A program made the translations under genes and the position numbers. The notes under the pieces were generated by a model. It was not told where the DNA came from. It worked only from the letters and a program-made list of their open reading frames with translations, and searched no databases. A stretch of 64,000 nt of DNA from Octopus vulgaris (lineage: Eukaryota). Below, piece by piece: positions 24,637 to 63,848 of this stretch; position 1 is the stretch's first letter; every line of letters begins with the position of its first letter. Where the stretch lies: positions 1,364,001-1,428,000 of the forward strand of contig OX597831.1 of the NCBI GenBank assembly GCA_951406725.2, given 5' to 3'.

Positions 24637-25038
24637 TACTCTTTACTCTTTTACTTGTTTCAGTCATTTGACTGCGGCCATGCTGGAGCACCGCCTTTAA
24701 TCGAGCAACTCGACCCCGGGACTTATTCTTTGTAAGCCCAGTACTTATTCCATCAGTCTCTTTTGCCGAACCGCTAAGTGATGGGGACATAAACACACCA
24801 GCATCGGTTGTCAAGCAATGCTAGGGGGACAAACACAAACATACATGCACACACATATATACATATATATACATATATACGACAGGCTTCTTTCAGTTTC
24901 CGTCTACCAAATCCACTCACAAGGCTTTGGTCGGCCCGAGGCTATAGCAGAAGACACTTACCCAAGGTGCCACGCAGTGGGACTGAACCCGGAACCATGT
25001 GGTTGGTAAACAAGCTACTTACCACACAGCCACTCCTG
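24637..25038 (-). mobile_element. Full-length tRNA-derived SINE (family A)
   Basis: Reverse complement of the copies at 30934, 35794 and 43823: A/B boxes, CCTTGGGCAAGTG core, internal (TA/TG)n, and ACAAGTAAAAGAG tail. Confidence 0.9.
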
Positions 25039-25630
25039 TACCTTCAAAGCTTTATGAAATAAGTGGTCCATTACTTTAAAAAATTGGTAAAGGCTAGCAA
25101 AGAAGAAGGGCATCCTTCTGTAAACCAATCCTTGAAATAACGTATTCATTCAATCCTTGCAAGCATTGAAAAGCTTGCTTGGGACAAACAAACAAATTTG
25201 CAGGTAAAATGAAAGAGTAACTGGGCATTAAGAAGTATCAACTAATATTTACAGAAAATTATACTGGTGATGGTTGTTGTTGTTGTTTGAGTTTAGCCTT
25301 GATGAATCAGACCTTCAGTCAAAGATGTTCCAGCTGTGACCATCTTTTTCCCAAATTTAGTGCACCCTGGACTGTTATCTAATGTGTCCTTCTTTTGTAG
25401 GAGATTTGATTGCTGTTTCTAGCAGATGAGAGTGACCATATAAAGACTAACTTGTTTGCTTGAGATTCTTTCTTGATGCATGCTGATTGAGAAAGTGCCA
25501 TATAATGCTTATGATAAAGTAAGACCAGGATCAACATGGGGATAAGTGGTTAGGCTAGACATCATGCTATTGGGCCTTACTGAATCCAAGATAAGTGGAG
25601 ATATACCAAACAAAACATAGTAGGTACCCT

Positions 25631-25873
25631 ATATTATTTACATTTGGCAGATATTTGTCCTCATCTTGTTTGTTGTTAACACAACATTTCAGCTGATATA
25701 CTCTCCAGCCTTCATCAGGTGTCTTGGGGAAATTTCAAACCTGGGTTCTCATTTCTATGATATTTTTCGATGTGTTATTATTATTATTCAGGTCACTGCC
25801 TGGAATCGAACATGGAATTTTGGGGTTAGTAGCCTATGCTCTTAACCACTACGCCATATGCCCGTGGGCATAT
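25631..25873 (-). mobile_element. tRNA-headed short retroelement carrying a hammerhead-ribozyme motif
   Basis: 8-bp TSD GGTACCCT (25623-25630 and 25874-25881). On the minus strand: A-box TGGCGTAGTGG (25856-25846), B-box GTTCGATTCC (25811-25802), an (AAT)n linker, then a CTGATGA...GAAA motif. Confidence 0.8.
25678..25723 (-). ncRNA. Minimal type I hammerhead ribozyme motif (probably CpG-decayed)
   Basis: Minus strand reads GACAC-CUGAUGA-A-GGCUG-(10 nt)-CAGCU-GAAA-UG-UU-GUGUU. Stem I is GACAC/GUGUU and stem II is GGCUG/CAGCU, with both core boxes present and no true stem III. Confidence 0.6.
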
Positions 25874-27881
25874 GGTACCCTGTTTTCACTAAGTGCTTTA
25901 AGTGTTTATGTAGTAGATACCCTCTTGATCATCCTACTCTGGACTGGGCGAGACATCAAGGATGTAACTGCTGGAGGGAGAGAGGGATGCACCAGCACTA
26001 GGCTAGTACTCATTTTCAGCTGAATTAACCGGATGTGGGGGCATGAAATGAAGTCCCTTCGGCAAGGCACTTCATTTTATGTGGTAGTATATAATAACCT
26101 AGAGGATAAAATATTACACTATTAATTTATGGGTCACATATTTGTATCAGGCTTATGCCATTTTAAGTAGAGTTTATCCAGTATATCTCAATGGAGAAGA
26201 GGTACCTGTATAAGGAGAGAGTATATCTCAGTGGAGAAGAGGTACTTGTATAAGGAGAGAGAGAGAGAGAGTTGCTTGAGATTCTCTCCAGAAAAGAAAT
26301 TTGATTTGCAACTGTTTAATACTACATAATCTAGGGATTAAGTATATCAGCTTTATAGACCCTATCCCTGTCTTTATAAGTGTTTGTTTACAAATCTATT
26401 ATATAGTGATTATGAAGTTAAGATATTACTAATTTAGCAGATTATGGATTCACACAATTTTTTGAACTTTACCTCAGTTGAGTAGTCAAAGGCTCTTTAT
26501 GATCTGAGTTCTGGTCCTGTTGAAGTTAACTTTGCTTCCCATCTTTCTGGGGCTGATAAAGAATTAGTCAGTCAGGTATTGGTGTCTATACAGTCAGTTA
26601 TGCCCAAATTTGAAGCCTTGTGTGTATGTTAGAAATCAATATTAAAATATGGTGCCCCACTACTAAAGCATTTGTTGCAATCAAGCCAACAGGTAGCCAC
26701 AGCTTGGCTGCTCAATACGAAAATACAAAGCCCCACTGTTCAAGTATATACTAGAACCATATCATCAGTAATTCTTAAGCTGTGGGGGGGGGGGGGATTT
26801 CAAGCTTCTGAAAGTAAAATTTGAAGATTTCAATGAGGAAATTGTTTTAGGAAAAATTCTTTTGTCATTATTTATAAGTTTTACTAGATATATTTTTGCT
26901 AATGTTAAATTAATAATATAAGGCTGTTAATGTTATATAATAAATTGTTCTTTTCATGACTAATACTTTTCTTGTTAGATTTAGAGGGAAAATCAGGAAG
27001 GTGAACTGATAGAGAAATACAAAAGGAAAGGGGTTAAGAAATTTAGACCATCATGGTTGCTAAATGGTAAAATATGGTATTCTCTTCTATTAAAAACACA
27101 TACTGCAACTAAGCCAATGGGATAATCTCTATATTTGGCTCAACCATTCAGAAATAGTGGTCAGTTCTTCCTCTAATCACACCCTACAATCTTTAAAAAG
27201 AAGGATACATTGAAGAACATCTCTGACTGAGATCTGCTCCATCAGGTTCGGTCTAGGTCTAAACAATAACATTAACAACAATATACTGCAACAATTTCCA
27301 ACAAAGAATTATTGAAGATATCTCAAAAGCCTTTGAGCAGATTGTAATTGCCAGTATGTGAGTCTGGTTTTACAGTGTTAAAAGAAGTGGTGTTGAATAA
27401 AGTTCTCCCTTGGATAAGATTCCCAGTCTTACTAGAACTAGCAGACTAAACCCTTACCTGGTTTACTGTTCTAGTTATGAATGGAGGTTTTTATAGTAGT
27501 AGTAGGAGAATGGTTGAGAAGAAACAGCATATATATATGAATTAGTGGTTGGAGTGTTTCTGGCTGTGTGTAACAGGAACACTGTTCCAGATATGTGAGT
27601 TATAACCTTGTGTGAGTAACACTTGAACTTTGTGGAGGGCCTAGCAACTGATCATCATCTTCATCATTTAAAGTTGAGGGAGATTTTCTAGTCAGATGCC
27701 CTACCTGTCACCAACCCTCACCTGTTTCCAAGCAAGATTCCCCATGCTCAGACATGACCCTTTGGAAGATTGGAAACGAAGGACACTGCTTGTATGACAG
27801 TGACACTCATTTGCAACTTTCACATGAAGTCAAGACTGGAAGACAGTGAAACATACATACACAATTGCACTTACACATACA

Positions 27882-28087: not shown

Positions 28088-30156
28088 ATATATATATATA
28101 TATGACTGGCTTCGTCCAGTTTCCATCCACTAAACCTACTCACAAGGCTTTGGTCATTCTGAAGTCATAGTAGGTACCACACAGTGGGACTGAACCTCAG
28201 ATTATGTGGCTGGGAAGCAAACTGCTTACTACACACCCACACCTGTGCCTCATCAGATCTGAAATATTTTCCAGTTCTAAAGAGGAATCCATTTAATAAA
28301 TAGAAATATTGGTTTCAAATTTTGGTACAAGGGCAGAAATAAAAAGAAATATTAAATACTTGTCAGCACAGGTATGGCTGTGCTGTTAAGAGATTTGCTT
28401 CCCTATCACATGGATTTCAGCTTCAGTCCTACTGCATGGCATCTTGGGCAAGTGTCGTCTTCCAGAGAAGCAGGCCAGCCAAAGCCTTATAAATAAATTT
28501 GGTTGATAGAGACTGGAAGAAGCCCAGTCTATAATGTGTATCCTTGTCTTGACATCATGTGATAGTTGTAAATGAGTGTCGTTTATTTCCAGTATTCTGC
28601 AAAAACATGTCTGTCTATGGGGAAGTATTGCCTTGCTTGCAAACTGGTAAGGGTTGGCATCAGGAAGATCATTCAACCGTTGAAGATCTAACTCAGTAAA
28701 CTCTATCTGATCCATACTTCCATAGAAAAGAGGATGTTAAAATGGTTATAGACTAAAAGCTTTGTTTCATATAATTGACGAATATAATTCTTGTTCACAG
28801 TGCCCCTGCATGGGCCACAGTCAAATGAGTAGTCTACATTTTTTTTAATCAAGTGAAGTGGCAGAAACAGTAGAGAGCTTGCCAAAATGTTTTCAAATAT
28901 TTAGCTTTACCTCAGTGATGCACTGATTTCAATAAGGCAACTCTTGTTGCTCCAGAATTGATAAATTATGCATGGCATAAACTGAGATCGATTTAATTAA
29001 ACACAATTTACCTTTACATATTGTTTAACCCCAAGTCAGCTTAGAACAAACACACATGAACAGCACTCTAGCTACAATTCTCCTGTATTTTATTCAGGCA
29101 TCACGGATCTACAGCTACATTACCCAATGTGTTCTTCCTTTTTTTTTTTTTTTTTTTTTGTAAGACAATACAGTGAAATTTGAGGGAGATTTTTGGCTGC
29201 TATTTTTAACAGGTTGAGCAACTGCCTGTAGACCTCCTTCATTGGCTAGACAAATATAATATATGGTTTTATGTCAATATGTAAAACACTTAACATGTTT
29301 ATAATGTCTTTATGGTTGCAATTTCCACTGTTTTCTCTTTTTTTTTTTTTAAAGAGTAACCTGAAACATGTGAAAGTTTTGCTGGCAACAGATTGCAAGT
29401 AAACTGATCTGACCCACGCTAAAATAATTTGATAATTTTTTTGTTTATGTTTTTAAACTTTTTATCGTGAAGTTTTATTTATTTCAATTTGATGCCATCA
29501 ATTTGTGATTGACTGATAAAAATGGAGTTATTTATAAAAATGACCTTCAGTCTTAGAAGAAATTTTGCTTTACTACTTTCACAATAACAAACACATTTGA
29601 ACTGGAATGACAAAGTAAATAAAATATTAATGGTAAAGTTAATGTTGACATGTTTAATATCTTGGACATAACAGCTTACTGGAATAAAGTATGAATAAAA
29701 TATTAATAACTAAGGAATAATTAATGAAGTATTAATAGTTACATTAGTGTCAACTTATTTAATATATTAGGTATTAAATAGCTAACTACAAGTATGCAAT
29801 GAAAAGAAGAAAAAAAATCTATTTGTGAGTAATATCATTTTCATGTTTTCAGAAATTATATGAGACTTCAGACATGCTTCTGTCTTATTATAGCCTCCTC
29901 CGCAAAAGTACAACCTTCACTGTACTTATGAAAATAGTGATGGAAGAGTTACTTAGTAAATGTATAGTATTATTCATTGGTTGATGTAGGAAAATTGAAT
30001 TGTTTAGAGATTAAGTAACTCAGAGATGTCAGCCATCTACATGAAAACAGTAGTTAAGTTTGTATTTATATAATTAAAGCAGGGAACACTACAAAAACAT
30101 AAAAACGAAAGAAAGAAACTAGCAGTGCGGTAAAGACAGTATTAGTCAATGGATAA

Positions 30157-30325
30157 TCATCATCATCATCATCATTGTTTAACGTCCGCTTTCCATGCTA
30201 GCATGGGTTGGACGATTTGACTGAGGACTGACAAACCAGATGGCTGCACCAGGCTCCAATCTGATCTGGCAGAGTTTCTACAGCTGGATGCCCTTCCTAA
30301 CACCAACCACTCCGAGAGTGTAGTA
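30157..30325 (-). mobile_element. RTE-LINE 3' end fragment
   Basis: (CAT)n followed by GTTTAACGTCCGCTTTCCATGC...GGATGCCCTTCCTAA. Confidence 0.8.
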
Positions 30326-30933
30326 TTAGTGTAGGATAATATTACTTTTATTTAAGCTGGTGAACTGGCAGAATCATTAGCATGCCAGGCAAAATGCTTA
30401 GCAGCATTTCATCCATCTTTATGTTTTGGGTTCAGATTCTGCTGGGGTTGACTTTGCCTTTCATCCTTTCAGGGTCAATGTAATCAACTTATCTCCTCCT
30501 CCCCAAATTGCTGGCCTTGTGTTGACCTTTGAAACCAATATTATCTTCATTGGATAGCAGCAAGCTGGCAGATTCTGTACTACACCAAACAATGCTTAGT
30601 AGTATTTCCTCCAGCTGTTTACATTCTGAGTTCAAATTCTACTGAAGTTGATTTTGCCATCATCCTTTCAGGGTCGATGAAATAAGTACCAGTTTAATTC
30701 TGGAGTTGATGCAATTGACCCACTCACAATCCACTTAAAACTGCTGGCCTTGTGCCAAAATTAGAAAAAATATTAATTTCATTGGGCAAGGACAGTGGAT
30801 TGAGCAGAATCCATAGTGTCAAATTACCTTGTGTTATTTGTTTCTACTCTTTACATTCTAAGTTCAAATCTCACAGATGCCACATTTGCCTTTCATCCTT
30901 CCTGGTTTGGTAAAATAAAGTACAAGTCATGTA

Positions 30934-45071: not shown

Positions 45072-46592
45072 ATCATCATCATCGTCATTTAATGTTTGCT
45101 TTCTATGCTGGCATGAGATGGACAGTTTGACTGATGGCTGGCAAGCCCGAAGGCTGCACCAGACTCCAATCCGATTAGGCAAAGTTTCTACAGCTGGATG
45201 CCTTTCCTAATGCCAACCACTCTGAGAGTGTAATGGGTGCTTTTTACATGCTACCGGCATGAGGACCAGTCAGGTGGTACTGGCATCGACCATGCTTGAA
45301 TGGTACTTTTTGCATGCCACAAGCACGAGAGCCAATCAGACGGCACTGGCAACGAGCATGCTTGAATGGTACTTTTTACATGCCACTAGCACAGGAGCCA
45401 GTCAGGTGGCACTGGCAACGATCATGCTCGAATGGTGCTTTTTACATGCCACTGGCACGGGTACCATTCAGGCAGTACTGTCATCAGCCATGACACCACT
45501 TCACTTACCTCAACAGGTCTTCGCAAGCACAGATTATTCCCCAATGATTGAAGAGTACTCTTAAATGAGTTGGTTATGCTGCACTGGCATAGGCCACAGT
45601 TACGGTCTCACTTGGCTTGCTGGGTCTTCTCAAGTATAGCATATCTCCAAAGGTTTCAGTCACTTGTGATCGCTTCAGTGAGGCCTAACGTTCAAAGGTC
45701 GTGCTTCACCACTTCATCTCAGGTCTTCCTGGGTCTACCTCTTCCACAGATTTCCTCTACTGCTAGGGTGTGACACTTTTTCATGCAGCTGTCCTCATCC
45801 ATATGCAACACATGACCATACCAGCTCAGTCGTCTCTCTTGCCCACCACATCTGATGCTTCTTATGTTCAACTTTTCTCTCAGAGCACTTACACTTTGTT
45901 GTGTATGCACACTGACATTACATATCCAGCAGAGCAAACTAGCTTCATTCCTTGTAAGCTTACACATGTCCTCAGCAGTTATGGTCCATGTTTCACTGCC
46001 ATGTAGCATGGCTGTTTGCACACATGCGTCATACAGTCTACCTTTTACTCTGAGTGAGAGGCCCTTTGTTACCAGCAGAGGTAAGAGCTCTCTGAACTTT
46101 GCCCAGGCTATTCTTATTCTAGCAGCTACACTCTCAGAGCATTCACCACTGCTACTGACCTAGGTAATGGAAGCTATCAACTATTTCTAGTTTTTCTCCC
46201 TGGAATGTGATAGAAGCTGTTTTCTGCACATTTTCAGTGTTTATTGCCCCTGAGTATTTACCACACACAAAAACTATCTTCCCAGAAAGCCTTCCTTTAA
46301 TATTGTTGCACCTTTTATGTGTCCATAACTTACACTGGGTACATCTTATGGAGTTTCTACCTACGTCTTTTCCACAGATCGAGCAGGGCCATCTACCTGA
46401 AGGGATTTGTGGTTTGTCTGCCTTCCTACTTATTAAGACTTTGTTTTTTGCTAGATTGACTCTATGGCCCTTCGATTCTAGACCTTGCTTCCATTCCTGA
46501 AACTTCTCTAGAGCAAGGTCATCAGCATAGAGAAGCTCTCAGGGGCATCCTGTCTTGAATTCCTCTGTTATTGCCTGGAGGACTATGATGAA
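45072..46592 (-). mobile_element. 5'-truncated RTE-clade LINE (RT C-terminal half plus 3' UTR), pseudogenised
   Basis: Minus strand: ELLYADDLAL (RT catalytic motif), GHRVNLAKNKVL, EIVDSFHYLG, AMLHGSETW, RRLSWYGHVLHM, GRGRPRKT. Stops and frameshifts are present, and the (ATG)n tail is at 45072. Confidence 0.93.
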
Positions 46593-57339: not shown

Positions 57340-59100
57340 ATAATTAGTGGAATAGTAAAAAGTTTAGAAATTTCTTCAAAAACTTAGGATTGTCTATTAT
57401 GTTGAGAAATAACTGTAAGGTAGCAAATTTTCTGGATGTCCCACTGGAACGTAATACCTTCATCAATTATAAGCCCAATAAAAAACTGCAATATATGAAC
57501 AGAAATTCCAACCATCCTAGAGCAGTAATTAAGTCCATTATTAGGGGTAGTTCATCTAGAATATCCAAACTTTCTGCTCATGAAGAAATTCTCTCAAAAT
57601 ACAGACTATTATAATACAGCATTAGCTAGAAGCAGGTATACTGAAAAGATCTAGTATATCTGTTGACAGTGTTGTGAAAATACCAAAAGATATTTGGGTT
57701 GCATTCACAAGAGTATAGATTTAGTGATACATCTTATCTAGGAAATGTTAATTGTTATAATAACATGCATGAGTGTAAAAATACTAGTAATCACAAGGTT
57801 AACCTGTACGAACTTCTCATAATAAACAGTTGAAAATTAAATAGGGAAATGATAATTCCCATAGATAGAAACAAGATGTTGTTAATGAGGCAAACTGTCA
57901 ACAAAGCTCTGGAAGTTCCCCTAAACTGATTTTGAGTATCTTGGGAAACAGGCCTTCATCAAATTGAAGTAGAAAGATTACATATGACAAGTTTTACTCC
58001 ATGAAATTAGGTGAGTGAATAAATCTAGAATTAACCACACCACTCTCAACAGCAATAAAACTGGTAAAAATAGATTACACAAGAAAAATTCTGCATTGTT
58101 TAAATCCCCTTTCAGAATTAATGTAGCCTTGGATATCCTTGAAATTTTCTTTCGGCTTTGGAGAAGCATTCCCCACTCTAGTAAGTATAGTAACAGTTTT
58201 AGTGGGCATAGTGTGGAATTCTACCATGTCTAATTTAATTGATAATATAACATATTAACAACAAGAAATTAAACAGAATTCATCATCATCATCATTGTTG
58301 TCATTTAATGTCCGCTTTCCATGCTTGCATGGGTTGGATGGTTTGACTGTGGGCTGGCGAACCAGCACCAGGCTCTAGTCTTGATCTGGCAGAGTTTCTA
58401 CAGCTGAATGCCCTTCCTAACGCCAACCACTCCGAGAGTGTAGTGGGTGCTTTTACATGCCACTGGCACGGGGGCCAGTCAGGTGGTACTGGCAACGACC
58501 TCGCTCGAATTTTTTTACACATGCCAATGGCACAAGTGCCAGTAAGGTGATGCTGGTAACGATCCCGCACGAATGTTGCCTCCTACATGCCACCGGCAGT
58601 AATATGAAACCTGCTTTTAATTATTCATATAGTAAATACAACTGTAGGTCTTCTGTATATTTGTCTCTATTTTGTATAAATAACACTAGTACTTTGGAGT
58701 TCCCTCCCAGCAATAACAATTATGCTAATACAATATATAATGTTTCTTCAGATAATAAACCTAACAGTATGTGAACTGTTGGAATCAATATAAGTTGTCT
58801 TTAATTATCTAGAAAGAATTTAGTATATAAGTATTCTGTTTTAAAAAATGCCCAATACAATACATTATTATGTAAGTGAATTTAAATTCAAATTTAGATT
58901 GCACAATCATATACATTCCTATAATAACAAATGGAAAAATCTTAGAACTTCACTAGCTAAATTCATCTGGGATCTCAAATAGTGGAAGATAGCTGTAATT
59001 TGTATTCTTTGGAAGCACCAGAAATTCTCAGGTGCAAGTCTGGTCTAATTAATTAACATTATAAATTATTGATCCATGGTTCTCACCAGTTCAATTGAAC
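57340..59100 (+). mobile_element. Decayed Penelope-like element (RT thumb, linker, GIY-YIG endonuclease)
   Basis: KVANFLDV.L...YKPNKKLQYMNRNSNHP..VIKSI...SRISKLS..EEI (57415-57600), linker LFKSPFRINV (~58096), and endonuclease-region NLVYK (~58818), FKFRLHNH (~58886) and TSLAKFIWDLK (~58947). Interrupted by an RTE fragment. Confidence 0.8.
58280..58598 (-). mobile_element. RTE-LINE 3' fragment nested in the Penelope relic
   Basis: (CAT)n tail plus 3' UTR with ~2 copies of the ~66-bp internal repeat. Confidence 0.85.
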
Positions 59101-61640: not shown

Positions 61641-63077
61641 GTTTATTAACAGAACTATTAGAGCATCAGACAAAATGCTTTGCAGTATTTGTTCTGGCTG
61701 GGTTCTGAAATTACATCCTGCAAGGATCACTTTTTCTTTTCATCCTTCCAGGGTTAATAAATATGTACCAATCTGGAGTGGCTTACTGGTGAAGATTTTA
61801 GAGCATGGAACTGAATGCTTTGCAGTATTTGTTTCAGCTGTTTGCATTTTGAGTTGAAATACTACTGTTGGTTATTTGAGTGGTAGACTCAATTCATGGC
61901 CCACTTTAATTCCACAACCTGGTCCTTGGGTGTCTTTGGTAGTATTCACTCAGCTGCAAGCATTTGGGCCAGATCTCTGGTTTGATGATACCTTCTTTTT
62001 CTTTTTTTTTTCCACCTGTCTGTGAGGCTCTAAAAAGGGTCATGGGGGCTGTCTGTTCTCTTGGTAAAATGATGAAAATTCTAAAAAAAAAATTGTAAAA
62101 AAACTATACAGATGTGTCCTTTTGTAGTGGAATTTGGGAAAAACAAACTTGTTACCCTTTGTCTGGCGTATAATGACCATATTTATTAAGGAAACAGTCT
62201 TACTAAACTACATTCCTCACTACACCAGAACAACACACAACTTGGACCCTTTATTGTCATTACAAACATGAGGCTTCTCAAGCTCTGGTAATTTCACACT
62301 ATAACATCACATGTTATTTAACAGAAACTGAAGGACAAAGACTTAGGGTGCTACTAATCATCAGAAAATACCTGAACCCTCAATAGTTATCCCCTTCCAA
62401 AGGCCACTTTGGGTTAATGTTCACATACCTGAAATTGTACTGATGACAGACAAACATCCAAGACATCATTCAATGGTAGCTCTTCTGAACTACCCCATAC
62501 ACTCTGTAAAGTGGTTGGCATAGGAAGAGCATCCAGCTGTAAAAATTTTGGCAAAACTAAGGTACTGGAGCAAGAGGATTTCCACCAACCTATAGTATCT
62601 TGTTAGACCACTCAAACCATGCAAACAAGGAAAGCAGATGTAAAATGCCTGCTTAGGTCTGAAGATTGATGTTTTACAAACTTGTCCAGTTCAAACCAGT
62701 ATAACAAGACAGATGGAAGTTTCATTCTAGTCACTAGTTTGCAGAAATAACAGCTAAATTTTCCTAAAATTACATTCTACTGGCTCAAAAAAGGAAGGAC
62801 ACATTGTTCTAGATATACAACTGTGCAATGATCATAACTAGAATACTTTTGATCAGAGATCTGCTCAGTTGTGACTAACTCAAGGTAAAAAAAAAAACAA
62901 CAACTGACAAACTGGTAGTAGTGGTGGCAACAGGCAGAGCTGGGTTTTTTCTTTCTTTTTATTAGCCTTGTACTATTTTGTTCAGATTATCTCTATCTTC
63001 AAATAAATTGCAATTTATTAGTTATTAAACCAACTGTATTTTCTCTTTTTTTATTATTATTTTTTACTTTCTTGCAG

Positions 63078-63155
63078 TTCTTGGCTCTTGGCACTCATAA
63101 TGGTGCAATCCACATATTAGATCATGCCGGATACAACATCAAAGACATTCAGGCG
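63078..63155 (+). CDS. VPS41: VPS41 coding exon 4 (FLALGTHNGAIHILDHAGYNIKDIQA); gene continues beyond the window
   Basis: Long polypyrimidine tract plus TTGCAG, and a GCG|GTAAGT donor. FLALGTH.G...LD..G directly follows VH.K in VPS41 orthologs. Confidence 0.95.
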
Positions 63156-63848
63156 GTAAGTTGTTTATTTAATTCTTTATCGTAAGATCCTGATTTCAGC
63201 ATTTATCTTCCATTGGGTTCACAACTGTATGAGCCTACACTAACTATCCAATTGTGGGATGGACCAGAGCAAGAACCAGATGAAGGTTGTTGTTATGGAT
63301 ATGTCAATGTAATCTGAAACTGTGCATAGACTAACACAGGGTACTCCTTGAGGTTGTTACCCCCCAATTTGGAGATCCTTTCTTATTGTTGTTTGGTTCT
63401 ATATGTTATTATTGTTATTTATTGATGTGTATTCTTAATTGTTTTGGTGGCCTTGCCCTTTTATTCATCGTAAATCCCCACCCCGTAGTTCCTGCTTGTT
63501 GTTTCCTTTTGGAATTCATGTTTGTAGTTTAGTTGTGTTTGATGTTGAAACAGTCGAAAGGTTTGAGAACAGAGCCGTTCTTCCCAGGTCAAGCCCTTAT
63601 CAACTTTTTCAAGCACTAACTTGAAAAGGAAGGTGAAGGAAGAGAGGGAGAGAGTAAATTTTATGAAAGGAGCAGGCATGAATGTGTGGTTGGGTAGTTC
63701 TCTCTCAACCACATGGTTTCTTGTTCAATCTCATTGCCTGGCCAATGGAACTGAACTTCTTTTACAGCCTTAGTCCAACCAAAACCTTGGGAGTAGATTA
63801 ATTAAACAGAAGCCTATTGTGTGTGTCTGTGTGTGTGTGTGTGTGTGT

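What the first reader, a model, noticed from the sequence alone, without database searches (positions are those of the whole stretch)
25623..25881. TSD-flanked Pol III retroelement joining a tRNA-like head to a hammerhead ribozyme
Seen: a 243-bp insertion between exact 8-bp repeats (GGTACCCT). On the minus strand it carries A and B boxes, an (AAT)n linker, and GACAC-CUGAUGA-A-GGCUG...CAGCU-GAAA-UG-UU-GUGUU. Known: minimal type I hammerheads lacking stem III are typical of Penelope-like element (PLE) terminal repeats and of retrozymes, and schistosome SMalpha repeats carry hammerheads. Inferred: this is a SINE/retrozyme hybrid transcribed by Pol III and probably mobilised by a PLE, and a PLE relic occurs in the same gene at 57340-59100. 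The two departures from an ideal motif (CAGCU for CAGCC, and UG for CG, which would give the palindrome ACGU) are both CpG-type transitions. This copy may therefore be inactive while the family consensus is active. I cannot tell whether the family is already described.
Basis: partly seen in the sequence, partly recalled or inferred. Interest (0 to 1): 0.75.

Follow-up and report, generated by a model that had tools for sequence, protein, structure and literature searches.

The report
Penelope end-repeat with tRNA-type promoter
This 243-base insertion is not a separate SINE but a decayed, stand-alone copy of the end repeat of a common protein-coding jumping gene (a Penelope-type retrotransposon); what is unusual is that the repeat begins with a tRNA-like head, so the element may be read by RNA polymerase III.

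Summary
The anatomy is real: 8-bp direct repeat, tRNA-like A/B boxes, (AAT)n, minimal type I hammerhead. The reading changes. The unit is the pseudo-LTR (pLTR) of an autonomous Penelope/Poseidon element. It follows the GIY-YIG end in 29 of 30 loci and runs on into the ORF start in 10 of 30. The ORF's ATG lies inside the 'SINE', and the hammerhead sits in codons 10-25 of an 835-aa frame. Inverted upstream arms, a one-sided 30-35-nt tail (36 of 40 pairs) and 10-13-bp TSDs are textbook Penelope traits. The relic at 57.3 kb is another PLE clade, not the partner. No SINE-specific lineage was found. What I did not find in print is the tRNA-like head. 25 of 30 sampled copies start at it, and the 2.8-kb unit has no TTTT on its sense strand, whereas other PLE ORFs have 5-9. 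This suggests Pol III transcription, which is untested. The scan noted this reading before on other DNA of this genome (e1-8669850). New variant of a known kind; this copy is dead.

The parts
25874..25881 (.). Target-site duplication, 5' side of the element (8 bp; the last two bases also fit the element's palindromic end)
25864..25873 (-). Short palindromic leader: remnant of an inverted arm plus the 2-nt centre; differs from the leader of ORF-attached copies
25791..25863 (-). tRNA-like head; family majority aligns over its length to a genomic tRNA-Arg(TCG), 49 of 71 aligned bases
25846..25856 (-). A box
   Evidence: colinear with the tRNA D-arm
25802..25811 (-). B box
   Evidence: colinear with the tRNA T-arm
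25773..25788 (-). (AAT)n linker, length variable between copies, upstream of the ATG
25633..25752 (-). First 40 codons of the Penelope/Poseidon ORF (ATG at 25752-25750); this copy has a stop at codon 6
25678..25723 (-). Minimal type I hammerhead; core 25718-25712 and 25690-25687; predicted cut between 25683 and 25682; C-to-T changes at 25691 (position 11.1) and 25686 (position 15.2)
25631..25640 (-). 3' end at the family's proximal end site; the optional 30-35-nt tail is absent in this copy
25623..25630 (.). Target-site duplication, 3' side of the element

Best explanation
The insertion is a solo, decayed pseudo-LTR of an autonomous Penelope/Poseidon retrotransposon whose repeat starts with a tRNA-like head, and it was likely made when the family's own RT/GIY-YIG protein copied the first 270 or so bases of an RNA that probably starts at that head under RNA polymerase III. 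Shown: the unit flanks an 835-aa RT + GIY-YIG frame on both sides, holds that frame's ATG and a minimal hammerhead, and most copies begin at the head. Inferred steps: (1) The A/B boxes set the start about 6-10 nt upstream of the head. (2) As in the anole element, reverse transcription starts inside the RNA at one of two sites, about 122 and 154 nt into the ORF, so any head-started transcript yields a short head-to-site cDNA. This is why solo repeats outnumber ORF-bearing copies. (3) The enzyme cuts both target strands 10-13 bp apart and primes from both ends, one at each site. The two cDNAs meet at the near-palindromic RNA start, giving head-to-head pairs with a tail on one arm only; here the second arm is reduced to about 10 bp. 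(4) The hammerhead would cut weakly, as a dimer or with protein help, 70 nt into the ORF. This copy has lost the G10.1-C11.1 pair, the ACGU palindrome, the frame and the tail, and is probably inert. Odds: pLTR identity about 0.95; head as a working Pol III promoter about 0.5; two-ended priming about 0.6.
For: pLTR identity: upstream of the head in L030 and L005 lies the ORF end. 29 of 30 endonuclease loci have the unit downstream (one is the query locus, two are duplicates). 10 of 30 N-terminal loci show the unit running past the tail into the ORF. The column majority of 48 long copies has one 835-codon frame from the ATG in the unit, with YVDD at 536, GIY-YIG motifs at 726-742, and the stop 29 nt before the head. 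Protein relatives carry RVT_1 and include an Anolis protein at 41%. PLE marks: inverted arm in 20 of 30 unselected and 24 of 30 best-hit loci; TSD of 10 bp or more in 21 of 53 units against 0.07% for mismatched flanks; tail on exactly one arm in 36 of 40 pairs, 19 left and 17 right. Arms of a pair share 14.5% of non-CpG variants against 5.1% for random pairs. Start at the head: 25 of 30 unselected copies start between about 11 nt before and 8 nt inside the head, 3 start further in, and 2 carry the ORF-side leader. Pol III hint: 0 TTTT in 2817 nt, against 2.9 expected with synonymous shuffles (P 0.027) and 4.9 with base shuffles (P 0.005); 9 ORFs of three other PLE families with equal T content have 5-9.
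Against: No direct evidence of Pol III use. RNA reads from a related organism are unstranded and show no pile-up of starts or ends at the head or at the cut site. GGGG is also absent from the sense strand (base-shuffle P 0.03; synonymous-shuffle P 0.27), so part of the run shortage may be compositional. No second Penelope/Poseidon family was found as a like-for-like control (30 of 30 loci were this family). ORF-attached copies have a -9.6 kcal/mol hairpin at the same point, which could stop the RT on a longer read-through RNA and give the same pile-up without a promoter. An uncapped Pol III RNA would be poorly translated (established knowledge). The paper on Adineta elements explains such palindromes by self-priming instead (PMC3846280, passage). 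No covariation in the hammerhead stems within the family (4 two-sided changes over 11 pairs).
Confidence: 0.8

Rival explanations
1. Same pLTR, but the tRNA-like head is a passive passenger. The element is read by Pol II from upstream host or tandem sequence, and solo copies pile up at the head because the RT stalls or folds back at the hairpin just before it.
For: The hairpin in the ORF-side leader is stable. [quoted passage not shown] A capped RNA solves translation. No start pile-up in RNA reads.
Against: It does not explain intact, correctly spaced A and B boxes or the lack of TTTT over 2.8 kb. The palindromic junctions have the register expected from an RNA end 6-7 nt before the head and lack the extra bases of the ORF-side leader. 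An RT stalled by a hairpin would be expected to stop at its 3' foot (inference).
Confidence: 0.35
2. One reading: solo repeats have become a true SINE. They are transcribed from their own A/B boxes and re-mobilised in trans by the PLE protein, forming their own lineage.
For: Solo copies dominate (28 of 30 unselected heads lack the ORF-side leader) and carry the promoter boxes and the ribozyme. pLTRs sufficed for mobilisation in trans in Adineta (PMC3846280, passage). Changes just before the tail are somewhat commoner outside ORF-attached copies (14 of 24 against 2 of 10).
Against: Among 141 arms the common variants occur at similar rates in ORF-attached and solo copies, with no clear solo-only diagnostic change apart from that tail-junction difference. 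Divergence is alike (3.7% against 3.1% non-CpG). The anole enzyme needed ORF sequence about 55 nt beyond its start sites (PMC11167929), which solo copies lack by analogy.
Confidence: 0.15
3. A non-LTR retrozyme that spreads as head-to-tail repeats through circular RNA.
For: Type I hammerhead and a unit of about 270 nt; one tandem locus in the unselected sample (L186/L187).
Against: The unit is part of a protein-coding element. Copies are single or inverted rather than head-to-tail. Copy ends fall at the head and at the two 3' sites, not at the ribozyme cut.
Confidence: 0.03

Closest known systems
Penelope/Poseidon PLEs: Poseidon_Ac of the green anole (PMC11167929, parts 1-2 of 4 read) and Adineta Pen2/Pen2a/Pen3a (PMC3846280, passages)
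   Same: Single ORF of about 835 aa with RT and C-terminal GIY-YIG; pLTR made of 5' UTR plus ORF start; hammerhead overlapping the ORF start; optional 30-40-nt tail on one arm; inverted 5'-truncated pLTR; palindrome at the 5' end; 8-13-bp TSD; solo pLTRs; 3' ends about 120-155 nt into the ORF (111-118 in the anole).
   Different: The pLTR starts with a tRNA-like head with A and B boxes. The described promoters are TATA/Inr-like or TATA-less LINE-like. The ATG lies 35 nt before the core rather than within it. The sense strand lacks TTTT.
Minimal hammerheads of animal PLE pLTRs (PMC4209133, parts 1-2 of 4 read)
   Same: Short stem I, extra base between positions 9 and 10.1, G10.1-C11.1, palindromic 15.2-16.2, no stem III.
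   Different: Nothing in the family majority; this copy has lost two of these features.
Schistosome Sm-alpha / Sj-alpha (PMC2770079 and PMC6765202, passages; primary paper not held)
   Same: tRNA-derived repeat with a hammerhead, apparently transcribed by Pol III, more than 10,000 copies. The pairing of a tRNA head with a hammerhead is therefore already in print.
   Different: Those are non-coding, often tandem elements with canonical hammerheads. Here the unit is the end repeat of a protein-coding element.
Animal non-LTR retrozymes (PMC7229834, passages; bioRxiv 10.64898/2026.07.22.740005, part 1 of 5 and passages)
   Same: Short hammerhead-bearing repeats tied to PLE pLTRs.
   Different: Retrozymes are defined by head-to-tail units and encode no protein; this family is autonomous and mostly single or inverted.
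Helenus/Ajax and Cassandra (PMC10886601, start of abstract and a figure legend)
   Same: Small-RNA-gene sequence placed inside the terminal repeat of a retroelement.
   Different: Those are non-autonomous LTR elements; this is an autonomous PLE.
Octopus tRNA-derived SINEs OK, OR1, OR2 (Ohshima and Okada 1994; not held, seen only as a citation)
   Different: OR2 is a CORE SINE (PMC4758252, passage). Sequences of OK and OR1 could not be compared, so identity with one of them is not excluded.

Membership tests
Penelope/Poseidon PLE (family) | Single ORF with RT followed by C-terminal GIY-YIG endonuclease | tested here: met
   835-aa majority frame; natural pieces; RVT_1 on relatives
Penelope/Poseidon PLE (family) | No Zn-finger-like linker between RT and EN (unlike Neptune, Nematis) | tested here: met
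   Translations compared by eye with those; criterion from PMC8557442
Penelope/Poseidon PLE (family) | Phylogenetic placement of the RT with reference elements | not tested
   No tree built. Similarity only: 28% to the genome's Neptune-type ORF, 41% to an Anolis protein. The clade names are my reading of motifs.
PLE pLTR | Direct repeat flanking the ORF that contains the ORF start | tested here: met
   (L232, L241)
PLE pLTR | Inverted 5'-truncated arm and optional tail on one end; short TSD | tested here: met
Minimal type I hammerhead | Core, stems I and II, G10.1-C11.1, palindromic 15.2-16.2 in the family | tested here: met
   33 of 102 arms keep core and ACGU, 18 of 102 also the stems
Minimal type I hammerhead | The same features intact in this copy | tested here: not met
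   C-to-T at 25691 and 25686; dimer helix +2.6 against -1.7 kcal/mol
Minimal type I hammerhead | Covariation in stems | tested here: inconclusive
   4 two-sided changes over 11 pairs in 121 arms; copies decay after insertion
Minimal type I hammerhead | Self-cleavage | not testable with these tools
   No end pile-up in fragmented RNA-seq
tRNA-derived SINE | tRNA-related head with A and B boxes | tested here: met
   (best of 35 distinct tRNA sequences of 7 isotypes; z 8.6; isotype tentative). Not called by ARAGORN or Rfam
tRNA-derived SINE | Non-autonomous, non-coding element distinct from its partner except at the 3' end | tested here: not met
   The entire unit is part of the autonomous element and holds its ATG
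tRNA-derived SINE | Own lineage with diagnostic changes | tested here: inconclusive
   None clear among 141 arms; a weak difference at the tail junction
tRNA-derived SINE | Transcription by Pol III | not testable with these tools
   Indirect only:
Non-LTR retrozyme | Head-to-tail repeats each with a hammerhead, no ORF | tested here: not met

The most novel reading that the evidence does not exclude
An autonomous, protein-coding Penelope retrotransposon has taken a tRNA gene as its internal promoter and is transcribed end to end (2.8 kb) by RNA polymerase III, purging every TTTT from its coding strand. Internal initiation of reverse transcription then sheds thousands of SINE-like solo repeats, a route to SINE-like elements that needs no separate partner. 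The strict one-tail rule records two-ended priming by a dimeric enzyme.
Probability: 0.4. Interest if true: 0.72.

Novelty: new variant of a known kind. Interest (0 to 1): 0.5.

Why it matters
Described Penelope promoters are Pol II-type. A tRNA-headed pLTR on a coding element would be a rare case of Pol III making a long ORF-bearing RNA, and would raise the question of how it is translated. It also shows how a PLE can fill a genome with repeats that look like tRNA SINEs and would be annotated as such. The family gives a large natural data set on the still unresolved PLE integration step: the 36-of-40 one-tail rule makes a two-ended priming model directly testable with the in vitro system already published. 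This single copy has no evident function.

Tried and rejected
Relic at 57.3 kb as partner: its relatives (30 loci) and 20 longer PLE regions share only AAT repeats or one 30-bp piece of another repeat with the element; rejected. Neptune-type GIY-YIG families as partner: 30 loci, no similarity beyond AAT runs and one 13-mer; rejected. Rfam: no tRNA or hammerhead hit on the window region or on six loci; the RAGATH-30 and microRNA hits are chance or simple hairpins. ARAGORN found nothing, also at a lowered threshold on the majority head. Reads from three raw runs of one study in a related organism: family present, fold joint at the head in 175-259 reads per run, unstranded, no starts or ends. Host gene: no exon joints or unique coverage over 19.5-30.5 kb in two runs, so 'same gene' is untested. 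Like-for-like control for T runs: no second Penelope/Poseidon family found. First majority builds had scaffold frameshifts and were replaced. One search was mis-oriented and is unused. Look-up of earlier findings by sequence gave nothing. Papers not held: Ohshima and Okada 1994, Lunse 2017, Ferbeyre 1998. Repbase and Dfam were not searchable. Supplements (for example PLE libraries of PMC8557442) were not read and may list this family.

Full report
Observation. The 8-bp direct repeat stands at 25623-25630 and 25874-25881, with 243 bp between. The minus strand shows the A box, B box, AAT run and hammerhead strands as described, and the 51-nt stretch folds into stems I and II (z -2.3). The element belongs to a large family in the 2.8-Gb genome: 40 of 4679 candidates were scored, at 88-92% identity, and a 26-mer of the head has 4238 exact matches. 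The window copy differs from the family majority at 16 of 231 bases, 8 of them CpG-type.

What the unit is part of. I tested this. Two best-hit loci share sequence upstream of the head that encodes the end of an RT/GIY-YIG protein. Searching with that piece, 29 of 30 loci have the unit downstream of the endonuclease (one locus is the query, two are duplicates). Walking to the N-terminus, 21 of 30 loci hold part of the unit, and in 10 it runs through the tail straight into the ORF. The column majority of 48 long copies has one 835-codon frame. It starts at an ATG inside the unit (window 25752), has YVDD at 536 and GIY-YIG motifs at 726-742, and stops 29 nt before the next head. The unit is therefore the pLTR: 5' UTR plus ORF start, with the hammerhead core 35 nt after the ATG. 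Protein relatives carry RVT_1 and include an Anolis protein at 41%. I place the family in Penelope/Poseidon from motifs, without a tree. The relic at 57357-57657 matches a different family with a cysteine-rich linker at 49% and has no DNA match to the element; the window holds no other piece of this family.

Insertion anatomy. An inverted arm sits directly upstream in 24 of 30 best hits and 20 of 30 unselected copies (the unselected set is the first 30 pattern matches on one contig and includes two near-duplicate pairs). After leaving out 7 ORF-attached or tandem units, 25 of 53 have end matches of 8 bp or more and 21 of 53 of 10 bp or more, against 1.3% and 0.07% for mismatched flanks. The 3' ends cluster at two sites about 30 nt apart. 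Of 40 pairs with both arms reaching this region, 36 have the tail on exactly one arm (19 left, 17 right), 3 on neither and 1 on both. Arms of a pair share more non-CpG variants than random arms (14.5% against 5.1%). These traits are described for PLEs (PMC8557442, passages; PMC3846280, passages), and the tail has been tied to two internal RT start sites (PMC11167929). A tail on the left arm with none on the right is hard to get by folding back a finished first strand. I infer priming from both target ends, one at each site, with the cDNA ends annealing at the palindrome (predicted self-duplex -10 to -13 kcal/mol against -0.6 to -2.1 for self-folding). This is inference; the Adineta paper prefers self-priming.

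The head. It aligns over its length to this genome's tRNAs, best to tRNA-Arg(TCG) (49 of 71 aligned bases, z 8.6). Only 35 distinct tRNA sequences of 7 isotypes were sampled and others reach z 5-8, so the isotype is tentative. ARAGORN and Rfam do not recognise it. Of 30 unselected copies, 25 begin within about 11 nt before to 8 nt inside the head, 3 begin further in, and 2 carry the ORF-side leader. Genome-wide, the exact ORF-side junction occurs 614 times and the palindromic junction 872 times, some counted twice. The 2817-nt majority has no run of four T on the sense strand (expected 2.9 with synonymous shuffles, P 0.027; 4.9 with base shuffles, P 0.005), while 9 ORFs from three other PLE families with the same T content have 5-9. 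Against this: G runs of four are also absent; no family of the same clade was available as control; a stable hairpin lies at the same point in ORF-attached copies; and RNA reads from a related organism show no starts or ends there. Pol III use is plausible, not shown.

SINE or by-product. Among 141 arms (26 ORF-attached, 64 solo, 51 truncated), the frequent non-CpG variants occur in all classes at similar rates and non-CpG divergence is similar. One weak difference remains at the tail junction (14 of 24 against 2 of 10). The simplest reading is that solo repeats are direct products of autonomous templates: internal initiation near the start of a head-initiated RNA gives exactly this fragment. 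An independent SINE lineage is not excluded.

The ribozyme. The family motif meets the published description of minimal PLE hammerheads (PMC4209133). 33 of 102 arms keep the core and the ACGU palindrome, and 18 also keep the stems. The only common non-CpG change in the core is at the free position 7 (22 of 118). There is no covariation within the family. Such motifs cleave weakly or need protein (same papers). This copy has lost G10.1-C11.1 and the palindrome, has a stop at codon 6 and lacks the tail, so it is probably inert.

Novelty. A tRNA-derived repeat with a hammerhead is in print for schistosome Sm-alpha, and all structural traits except the head are standard for Penelope. A tRNA-headed pLTR on an autonomous PLE was not found in nine literature searches. 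Repbase, Dfam, the 1994 octopus SINE paper and supplementary libraries could not be checked. The scan has noted the same reading on other DNA of this genome. Verdict: new variant of a known kind, interest 0.5.

Noticed in passing
L091, L092, L108 (G000 C16, C16, C5): A young Neptune-type PLE family with many uninterrupted 781-aa frames and a short tandem repeat array downstream of the ORF; possibly still active.
   Followed up: partly
window 57357-57657; L041, L054, L104: The relic belongs to a very abundant PLE family with RT, a cysteine-rich linker and C-terminal GIY-YIG (Nematis-like by recalled motifs); many near-identical young copies, and no Pfam match for the L041 and L054 frames.
   Followed up: partly
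window 45719-46538, minus strand: Broken non-LTR retrotransposon frames with a PHD-like finger inside the RT region (Pfam PHD E 7e-6).
   Followed up: no
window about 63075-63180, plus strand: Short match to the Vps41 beta-propeller (E 3e-4, below the cut-off); probably an exon of a host gene.
   Followed up: no
window about 24640-25040 and 30140-30500: Very high-copy short repeats that draw far more RNA reads than this element.
   Followed up: no
L008:1243-1748: An inverted pair of repeats sits inside the 3' end of a copy of the same PLE family, about 40 nt before where the head would be; possible insertion into its own kind.
   Followed up: partly
L207 (sixth tRNA locus): Cluster of seven tRNA-Cys-like genes within 3 kb.
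   Followed up: no
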